This document shows, piece after piece, positions 35,958 through 36,814 of a stretch of 64,000 bases of DNA. A program made the position numbers and the translations under genes. The stretch lies in the IMG/VR virus record IMGVR_UViG_3300027708_001637, one strand, 5' to 3'. The notes beneath the pieces are model-generated. The model was not told the origin of the DNA. It made no database searches and saw only the letters and a program-made list of their open reading frames with translations. Positions within the stretch are counted from its first letter, which is position 1. Each line of letters begins with the position of its first letter. The DNA comes from a virus.

Positions 35958-35965
35958 TATTTATG
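35958..35965 (-). promoter_or_regulatory. Late promoter CATAAATA
   Basis: TAAATA box just after the last hairpin of the structured element and 22 nt before the ATG at 35935. Confidence 0.65.
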
Positions 35966-35970
35966 TAAGG

Positions 35971-36391
35971 AAATGAGCATTCGCTCATTTGTTCTATCGC
36001 TCACGCTCAGAACATTTTAAGTCGAAGACTAATAATATTATCCAGATTAATCGCTCACACTTTGCCCAGACAAGGGCAAAGAAACATTATCCGAGTTGAA
36101 CCATGTCACTTAGTGTTACTGCATTACAGAGGCGGTCATCCGGTACCTCGAGCAGCGTCTTTATACGACGGCGGCTTATGTATATACACTAACATATACA
36201 TAAACGTAGGGAATACTATCCCTTCATTTTGCTTATTCTTTATCTTCAAACATCTAAACCGCAAGCATTTGCGATCTTCGTCCTGTTAAGGATAGTAGAT
36301 GAGTGCTCACTTCAGCGGTGAGTCTTCCGTCCCCGTTATTATCCGGTTGTCACTAGGCACCCGTGCTAAGCCGGTGCGAGCCAATCCTGAA
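35971..36391 (-). ncRNA. Candidate large structured ncRNA (about 420 nt), family unassigned
   Basis: Largest gene-free gap in the window. About 46% GC over 36061-36390 (hand count), whereas the other intergenic gaps are visibly AT-rich. Two long-range helices and about 10 local stems are visible by eye. Confidence 0.7.
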
Positions 36392-36814
36392 TTACTTTTT
36401 TAAAATGTGGGAGCCATGAACGCGGACCGAGATTTGTCCATTGTAGTAGTCTGTAGATTCAAGTACTTTGCGGTCGAATTGTTCACGGGCCTCAATGTAA
36501 CTACATTCACTTTTACTTTTGCAGTAATATAATATCTCTCTTTTGAAATTTTCTTTGCCTATTTTTGCTATATCTGCTGTTAACTCTAGACTGGACCCGT
36601 AATATTCCTGCCAGTCAGATTCGATTTTGCTTCGAATTTTCTTCTTTTTCTTTGTGCCATTCTTTAATGTTACAGTCTTATATGTGGTCTTCGCAAACTT
36701 TGCGAGTTTCTTTCCTATATATTTTCTGCCATTTGTCAAATTTGTAATCAAATAGACAAACCCCGCGCAATCATCGGGAAGTTCGTTTACTATTTGATCC
36801 TGGTACGTCCACAT
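36392..36814 (-). CDS. Compact GIY-YIG endonuclease (SegE-like/EndoII-sized, 140 aa)
   Basis: GFVYLITN...GRKYIGKK, YYGSS, F.REIL, catalytic-type Glu in YIEAREQF, YYNG.I. No C-terminal DNA-binding domain. Confidence 0.9.
   Translation of the reverse strand: MWTYQDQIVNELPDDCAGFVYLITNLTNGRKYIGKKLAKFAKTTYKTVTLKNGTKKKKKIRSKIESDWQEYYGSSLELTADIAKIGKENFKREILYYCKSKSECSYIEAREQFDRKVLESTDYYNGQISVRVHGSHILKK

What the first reader, a model, noticed from the sequence alone, without database searches (positions are those of the whole stretch)
35971..36391. Approximately 420-nt multi-domain structured non-coding element (candidate new large phage ncRNA)
Read on the minus strand from the base after the GIY-YIG stop, the sequence folds into a nested architecture. 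Closing helix P1 pairs GCTCGCAC (36381-36374) with GTGTGAGC (36060-36053), extendable by GGATT/AATCT. Directly adjacent, P2 pairs CGGCTTA (36373-36367) with TAAGCCG (36178-36172) perfectly. A three-way junction is closed by CATCTA/TAGATG (36301-36296/36256-36251) and holds TCCT-TAAC-AGGA and ATCGCAA/TTGCGGT hairpins. Further stems are CTCAC/GTGAG, AGGGA/TCCCT, TTATGTATAT/ATATACATAA (its outer 3 bp compete with P2), CGTC/GACG, GAGG/CCTC and CTTTGCCC/GGGCAAAG. 3' tail hairpins are TGTTCT/AGAACA and AAATGAGC/GCTCATTT. Other gaps in this compact genome are under about 180 nt and AT-rich; this one is over 450 nt and about 46% GC in its core. It matches no tRNA, tmRNA, RNase P or intron core motif I recognise. 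That it is an expressed RNA is inference.
Basis: partly seen in the sequence, partly recalled or inferred. Interest (0 to 1): 0.9.

Follow-up and report, generated by a model that had tools for sequence, protein, structure and literature searches.

The report
Knotted twin-repeat RNA of jumbo phages
The gene-free gap in this giant lake phage encodes a real, heavily knotted RNA of about 360 bases whose first third is the catalogued Polynucleobacter-1 motif; it ends in two short repeats that must stay identical to each other, and its best-supported but untested job is to re-pair with its own DNA and start genome copying, a trick that small bacterial islands appear to have borrowed.

Summary
Real structured RNA on the minus strand (about 36391-36037), but not wholly new. 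Positions 36382-36248 match Rfam Polynucleobacter-1 (91.9 bits, E 2e-19), noted in 2010 downstream of a conserved phage gene, here the GIY-YIG gene. Covariation in 84 phage homologs supports most local stems and four pseudoknots, but not the proposed closing helices P1 and P2. The 3' end carries two 7-nt boxes around a hairpin. They are identical in 208 of 212 copies (14% by chance), and their sequence can change freely. No internal complement or nuclease residue tracks them, and paralogs in one genome differ, so identity is imposed in cis. The same 3' core ends other RNA bodies. These include 4-5 evenly spaced, co-oriented copies in cultured Rak2-like phages (weak statistical homology) and copies under a phage late promoter in integrase islands with no recognisable Rep. 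The last two hairpins look like single-stranded DNA signals, as downstream of the ColE1 origin. Best reading (about 45%): an RNA-primed, R-loop replication origin. It is not a GIY-YIG guide. Expression is untested. Earlier scan notes found this RNA and, separately, proposed an origin for the enterobacterial copies.

The parts
36392..36814 (-). 140-aa stand-alone SegE-type GIY-YIG gene; syntenic neighbour, not an obligate partner
   Evidence: PF19835 E 1.6e-34; phrog_447; RNA also found without it and the gene without the RNA
36248..36391 (-). 5' domain = Rfam Polynucleobacter-1 (36382-36248): 5' pseudoknot (36381-80 with 36371-70; 36377-73 with 36361-57), hairpins, three-way junction, plus a pseudoknot between 36391-36387 and loop 36315-36311
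   Evidence: cmscan 91.9 bits, E 2e-19; covariation
36110..36222 (-). Middle core: two hairpins; 7-bp pseudoknot 36192-36186 with 36116-36110; 5-bp helix 36169-36165 with 36139-36135; stems 36155-52 with 36122-19 and 36149-46 with 36132-29. Shared with other RNA bodies and weakly like Rfam cow-rumen-2
   Evidence: 7-bp pseudoknot 96% paired, 7/7 covarying; 3 variable pairs of the 5-bp helix 99%, 3/3; cow-rumen-2 23 bits, below threshold; shared helix in other types
36086..36110 (-). Arm 1 of the twin module: GTGAC, variable spacer, ACTC, box 1 (GGATAAT, 36092-36086)
36060..36081 (-). RNA hairpin between the two boxes
   Evidence: 92% paired; internal mismatches G-U 16, A-C 0
36037..36059 (-). 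Arm 2 of the twin module: ATCT, box 2 (GGATAAT, 36043-36037), identical to box 1
   Evidence: identical in 208/212 copies; joint changes on the tree
36018..36033 (-). Small UUCG hairpin, probable 3' end region of the RNA (inference)
   Evidence: covariation z 16-22; 76% paired
35971..36015 (-). Two tail hairpins (tandem G-A stem-loop; C-GNA-G-type hairpin), probably single-stranded DNA signals such as a priming or primosome site (inference)
   Evidence: no G-U excess (34 G-U, 54 A-C); C-GNA-G triloops in 93 of 152; the same pattern lies about 140 nt downstream of the ColE1 origin
35958..35966 (-). T4-like late promoter TAAATA of the next gene; marks the 3' limit of the element
   Evidence: TAAATA precedes 10 of 31 long window ORFs, 2.5% expected

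Best explanation
A cis-acting, RNA-primed (R-loop) replication origin of a PA5oct/RaK2-like jumbo phage, working like ColE1 RNA II but unrelated to it in sequence. Shown: a covarying, four-pseudoknot RNA body ending in twin identical boxes around a hairpin, followed by two DNA-like hairpins. Inferred: (1) the transcript, here probably read through from the gp47-gp46-GIY-YIG operon, folds as it is made; (2) the folded core presents one box, which base-pairs with the template DNA strand of the other box, so the two must be identical while their sequence is free; (3) this anchors a persistent RNA-DNA hybrid whose 3' end is processed to a primer; (4) the displaced strand folds into the tail hairpins, which recruit primase or helicase. 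Small integrase islands carry the element under the phage late promoter so that they are copied during infection (inferred).
For: Box identity is 208/212 against 14% by chance. On the nuclease tree the two boxes change together (43/43, 18/18, 27/27 steps; 12 of 12 independent pairs). No complementary covarying column exists inside the RNA, no nuclease residue tracks the box (at most 0.31 against 1.0), and no extra copies lie nearby. Paralogs in one genome carry different boxes, each matched within its copy (T5 variable positions 23/23 and 21/23). Polynucleobacter islands keep the ACTC/ATCT frame with wholly different boxes. Together these point to a homology-dependent step in cis. In ColE1 the only two G6 runs lie at about -265 and -18, and the same tail-type hairpin lies about 140 nt downstream on the same strand; ColE1 opens its origin by a persistent RNA II hybrid (PMC5043065); that the G-run re-pairs with the template is from memory. 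The tail lacks G-U bias and favours C-GNA-G triloops. Enterobacterial relatives carry 4-5 co-oriented copies 43-100 kb apart (P 0.002-0.023 per genome, genomes not independent). 17 of 17 island loci share an integrase, a small recombinase and two unknown proteins; most have a gp44-like clamp-loader ATPase; none has a recognised Rep, primase or helicase. A TAAATA promoter lies 345-400 nt upstream of box 1 in 23 of 26 island copies.
Against: GC skew does not turn at the element and follows gene direction. Most complete aquatic genomes have one detectable copy, not several. No promoter was found for the window copy. Island copies are late-driven while enterobacterial phage copies have sigma70-type promoters. 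T1 has no G-run like ColE1's. Homology of the window RNA to the enterobacterial copies rests on a shared covarying 5-bp helix and layout; the covariance model hit only 1 of 19 such loci (E 0.004). The two unknown island proteins could be novel initiators. In the enterobacterial copies a strand just 5' of box 1 can pair with it, so an RNA-only strand swap could also explain identity there.
Confidence: 0.45

Rival explanations
1. A free, trans-acting ornate RNA or RNP (GOLLD/ROOL-like). The twin boxes are two halves of a two-fold symmetric RNA motif, for example parallel homo-base pairs or alternate pairing to one strand. Islands express it late as a decoy or anti-phage RNA.
For: Size, dense pseudoknots and modular 5' bodies; stand-alone promoters in enterobacterial copies; large phage RNAs form RNA-only multimers (PMC12286853); the arms are pseudo-symmetric.
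Against: It does not explain the DNA-like tail, the even genome-wide spacing, or the consistent presence in islands without a recognisable Rep. Box sequence is nearly arbitrary, which is hard for a fixed tertiary motif.
Confidence: 0.25
2. Another homology-dependent cis reaction: the boxes are template-jump points for a polymerase or reverse transcriptase (as in DRT2 or telomerase, from memory), or recombination or processing sites that excise or circularise the hairpin.
For: Perfect short direct repeats with a programmed 1-nt register shift flank a hairpin; islands always carry a small tyrosine recombinase.
Against: No reverse transcriptase among the neighbours examined. No copy with the hairpin deleted was noticed, although the search pattern required the hairpin. 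The phage slot has no adjacent recombinase.
Confidence: 0.12
3. A packaging, DNA-entry or genome-organising signal that islands copy in order to be packaged.
For: Late-promoter control in islands; even, co-oriented spacing; location beside the head and baseplate genes.
Against: These phages have fixed long terminal repeats (PMC13070987) and the copies lie far from the ends; five internal copies fit a pac site poorly.
Confidence: 0.1
4. Guide or scaffold RNA for the adjacent GIY-YIG nuclease (omegaRNA/HEARO-like).
For: Box 1 lies within 500 nt of the gene in 177 of 197 informative copies.
Against: The gene occurs without the RNA in about 15 of 80 loci and matches 464 cultured phage records, none of which gave a blastn match to this RNA. 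The RNA occurs without the gene in a free-standing paralog, in islands and in the same slot of enterobacterial phages. Genes are inserted between the two in many loci. No residue covaries with the boxes, and no variable guide segment was seen.
Confidence: 0.05

Closest known systems
Polynucleobacter-1 RNA motif (Rfam RF01718; Weinberg et al. 2010, PMC2864571)
   Same: The 5' 135 nt match the full model at 91.9 bits (gathering 37). Same position downstream of a conserved phage gene. The 2010 supplementary alignment already showed a tail with a 7-bp pseudoknot.
   Different: Rfam models only 141 nt, and no function was proposed. The twin-box module, the DNA-like tail, the extra pseudoknots, the interchangeable 5' bodies and the late-promoter islands are not in the passages read.
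cow-rumen-2 RNA motif (Rfam RF02947)
   Same: Aligns over the whole model to the middle core, including the helix-forming segments.
   Different: 23 bits against a gathering score of 66, E 0.67: at most a distant relative.
ColE1/pMB1 RNA II pre-primer and origin (PMC5043065)
   Same: Long structured RNA, a direct repeat within the transcribed region, a similar hairpin downstream on the same strand, and no Rep protein.
   Different: No homology detected (no Rfam hit to its RNAs). No antisense RNA I seen. The repeat is a variable 7-13-nt twin rather than a G-run. Found in lytic jumbo phages, often in several copies.
GOLLD and ROOL large ornate phage RNAs (PMC12286853)
   Same: Large, multiply pseudoknotted, phage-borne, function unknown.
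   Different: No Rfam match to either family; smaller; ends in a cis-constrained direct repeat and DNA-like hairpins.
HEARO/omegaRNA (nuclease-associated guide RNAs)
   Same: About 350-nt structured RNA next to a small endonuclease gene.
   Different: Gene and RNA occur independently; GIY-YIG rather than RuvC/HNH; no guide segment.

Membership tests
Polynucleobacter-1 (RF01718) | Covariance-model score above the gathering threshold over the full model | tested here: met
   91.9 bits against 37, model 1-141
Polynucleobacter-1 (RF01718) | Usually downstream of a conserved phage gene (GOS11034, like P-SSM2 locus 218) | tested here: inconclusive
   Lies downstream of a SegE-type GIY-YIG with cyanophage homologs; identity of this gene with GOS11034 not checked directly
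cow-rumen-2 (RF02947) | Score above gathering threshold 66 | tested here: not met
   23 bits, E 0.67
ColE1-type RNA-primed origin | Sequence or structure homology to RNA II / RNA I | tested here: not met
   No such Rfam hit
ColE1-type RNA-primed origin | Direct repeat allowing the RNA to re-pair with template DNA | tested here: met
   Twin boxes; ColE1 G6 runs at 928 and 1175. Layout only; pairing to DNA not shown
ColE1-type RNA-primed origin | Single-strand priming hairpin downstream on the displaced strand | tested here: inconclusive
   Same pattern as at ColE1 position 1332; function not shown
ColE1-type RNA-primed origin | Persistent RNA-DNA hybrid, RNase H processing, autonomous replication | not testable with these tools
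   needs experiments
GOLLD / ROOL | Rfam model match | tested here: not met
GOLLD / ROOL | Abundant RNA forming RNA-only multimers | not testable with these tools
RNA-guided nuclease system (OMEGA/HEARO-like) | Obligate linkage of RNA and nuclease gene | tested here: not met
tRNA, tmRNA, RNase P, group I/II intron | ARAGORN or Rfam match | tested here: not met

The most novel reading that the evidence does not exclude
Polynucleobacter-1, a cow-rumen-2-like core and the uncatalogued five-copy RNAs of cultured RaK2-like phages are one superfamily of modular, pseudoknotted primer RNAs. They open replication origins by pairing one of two identical boxes with their own template DNA. A widespread class of integrase islands without a recognisable Rep has captured them under the phage late promoter to replicate as jumbo-phage satellites.
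Probability: 0.35. Interest if true: 0.9.

Novelty: new variant of a known kind. Interest (0 to 1): 0.68.

Why it matters
No account of where or how RaK2/PA5oct-like jumbo phages start DNA replication turned up in the papers searched, and Polynucleobacter-1 has had no function since 2010. If correct, this gives a 15-year orphan RNA motif a mechanism, extends structured-RNA priming from small plasmids to 350-kb phages, and identifies candidate satellites of jumbo phages. The rule that the two boxes may be any sequence but must match gives a sharp genetic test (single against double box mutants). Cultured relatives on laboratory E. coli (121Q, PBECO4, EJP2) make the test feasible. Even if the origin idea fails, a direct repeat that covaries in parallel register is an unusual constraint that needs explaining.

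Tried and rejected
Closure of the middle domain by AGC/GCC: not supported. An internal complement for the boxes: none among the top covarying pairs. Boxes as binding sites of the GIY-YIG: no residue covaries. Boxes as genome-wide operator or promoter sites: no enrichment nearby. Box C/D K-turn, CsrA sites and Xer dif-like sites: considered by eye and rejected because box variants break each consensus. GC skew as an origin test: uninformative, as it follows gene direction. blastn of the element against cultured phages, and of the Rhodobacterales type against plasmids: no match. No genome is held for this window. PA5oct: its slot region shares blocks with the RNA-seq-detected ncRNA004, but the model did not hit PA5oct, Phosso or Atu_ph07, so it is not counted as expression evidence. 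Folds of the two unknown island proteins matched nothing in the PDB. Literature searches found no paper on the extended family; the cow-rumen-2 supplement is not held.

Full report
Setting. The window is part of a jumbo myophage genome. Its portal is closest to PA5oct, Phosso, Atu_ph07 and fHe-Yen9-03 (44-50% identity). The element lies between the late sigma-gp47-gp46-GIY-YIG genes and the baseplate/portal block. Complete IMG/VR relatives are 320-355 kb. No whole genome is held for the window.

Observation. The 456-nt gap is the largest in the window and its core is 46.4% GC. It folds better than shuffles (z -3.5). Rfam gives a strong hit to Polynucleobacter-1 at 36382-36248 (91.9 bits, E 2e-19) and a sub-threshold hit to cow-rumen-2 at 36205-36110. 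Weinberg et al. 2010 described the motif downstream of a conserved phage-like gene, noted that the 3' half is not always detected, and included a tail with a 7-bp pseudoknot in their alignment (PMC2864571). The element is therefore partly known.

Structure. Searches by the nuclease and by motif gave about 119 full-length homologs, 84 of them non-redundant at 60% mean identity. Mutual information and pair counts support most local stems. They do not support P1 (second pair 3%) or P2 (60%). There are four pseudoknots instead: a 5' knot (GCACC with 36361-36357, 100% paired, 5/5 covarying, crossed by a 2-bp stem); 36391-36387 with the loop at 36315-36311; the 7-bp helix 36192-36186 with 36116-36110 (96%, 7/7); and the helix 36169-36165 with 36139-36135. 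Body helices hold 178 G-U and 13 A-C cells, so the minus strand is an RNA. These helices were chosen on the same alignment, so the counts lean towards them.

The twin boxes. The strongest non-pairing signal is identity in parallel register between 36092-36086 and 36043-36037. Each box follows a fixed four-letter lead (ACTC, then ATCT), and a hairpin lies between them. Across 212 distinct copies the boxes are identical in 208 (14% expected), with about 14 different sequences. They change together on the nuclease tree (43, 18 and 27 joint steps; 12 of 12 independent pairs). Nothing in the RNA is complementary to them, no nuclease residue tracks them, and they are not repeated nearby. One complete genome has two copies with different boxes, each matched internally. 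Chromosomal copies keep the frame with quite different boxes. The constraint is identity in cis with free sequence. That is what base-pairing of one RNA box to the template strand of the other would impose (inference).

The tail. The last two hairpins are well conserved but show no G-U excess (34 G-U, 54 A-C; the tail aligns less well). They are nearly mismatch-free per sequence and end in C-GNA-G triloops in 93 of 152 cases. Such loops are extra-stable in DNA (established knowledge). The pattern for the first hairpin also matches ColE1 about 140 nt past its origin, on the RNA II strand.

The wider family. Other RNA bodies fill the same slot and end in the same module. A covariance model of the 3' half hits one such type at E 1e-10 to 1e-13, a Rhodobacterales island type at E 1e-3 and one enterobacterial-phage copy at E 4e-3. 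Cultured RaK2-like phages have a 0.8-kb gap in the same slot, with no GIY-YIG beside it. It holds an approximately 500-nt element, not in Rfam, with the same covarying 5-bp helix (22/22 paired), a hairpin flanked by matched repeats, and a similar tail. These phages carry 4-5 co-oriented copies, each with a sigma70-type promoter, spread evenly round the genome. I rate their homology to the window RNA as likely but not proven.

Islands. 17 of 151 Polynucleobacter genomes searched carry the Polynucleobacter-1 domain. Their copies and those in Rhodobacterales lie in one kind of 6-9-kb island: large tyrosine integrase, 188-aa recombinase and two unknown proteins in 17 of 17 loci, a gp44-like clamp-loader ATPase in most, and no recognised Rep, primase or helicase. 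A TAAATA motif stands at the RNA's 5' end in 23 of 26 copies; this is the window phage's own late promoter (10 of 31 long ORFs, 2.5% expected). An E. coli island at ffs carries the enterobacterial type. These look like satellites wired to jumbo-phage infection (inference).

The nuclease. The RNA follows the GIY-YIG gene in 177 of 197 informative copies, but each occurs without the other and genes are often inserted between them. This is synteny, not partnership.

Mechanism. One model accounts for the cis identity rule, the DNA-like tail, the even co-oriented spacing and the islands without a recognisable Rep: an RNA-primed origin that works like ColE1 RNA II, which opens its origin through a persistent RNA-DNA hybrid (PMC5043065). 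Folding and covariation are shown; hybrid formation, priming and satellite replication are inferred. Against it: no skew signal, mostly single copies in aquatic genomes, no promoter found for this copy and no expression data. I give it 0.45, a trans-acting ornate RNA 0.25, another homology-dependent reaction 0.12, a packaging signal 0.10 and a nuclease guide 0.05.

Novelty. By Rfam score it is a member of Polynucleobacter-1; it is not a member of the ColE1, GOLLD, ROOL or OMEGA families. The extended 3' module and the link to islands and to cultured phages were not found in the papers searched. Earlier AI notes of this scan had described this RNA, and had proposed an origin for the enterobacterial copies. 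I reached the origin idea before reading them (notes), and they are not independent support.

Noticed in passing
L477-L493 (Polynucleobacter and Rhodobacterales chromosomes); L454 4968-15312 (E. coli, at ffs): An apparently undescribed family of 6-9-kb integrase islands with a small second tyrosine recombinase, a phage-type clamp-loader ATPase, DUF6641, two unknown ~260-aa proteins and a T4-like late promoter driving the RNA: candidate satellites of jumbo phages. The E. coli island has a different gene set.
   Followed up: partly
L379 690-1170; L359 10010-10700; L375-L378; L398-L417: Uncatalogued ~500-nt structured RNA in 4-5 evenly spaced, co-oriented copies in cultured RaK2-like phages (71 records matched).
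   Followed up: partly
L345 6455-7969 (PA5oct record about 76-77 kb), and record 12.9 kb and 246.1-246.7 kb: PA5oct has three related non-coding elements. One is the RNA-seq-detected ncRNA004, whose annotated 3' end falls at the second copy of a 6-nt repeat flanking a GC hairpin. Homology to the window RNA not shown.
   Followed up: partly
L343 6126-7141 (Sinorhizobium phage Phosso): 1-kb unannotated, hairpin-rich gap in the same slot, directly upstream of an RNase HI gene.
   Followed up: no
L009 4430-4860; L029 4425-4800; L257; L300: At least two further RNA body types with unrelated 5' domains occupy the slot after the GIY-YIG gene and end in the same twin-box module; no Rfam match.
   Followed up: partly
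L428 1290-1700: Free-standing second copy of the window-type RNA, 143 kb from the slot copy, with no GIY-YIG; it lies downstream of a vWA/TROVE-like ORF (my reading of the sequence, not tested).
   Followed up: partly
window 36392-36814: PHROG 447 labels this family 'NAD synthetase', and many GenBank phage records repeat it; Pfam shows a SegE-type GIY-YIG, so the label looks like a propagated misannotation.
   Followed up: yes
window 36339-36345: A third GGATAAT sits in the loop of a 5'-domain hairpin, but close homologs with a different box keep it unchanged, so it is probably chance.
   Followed up: yes
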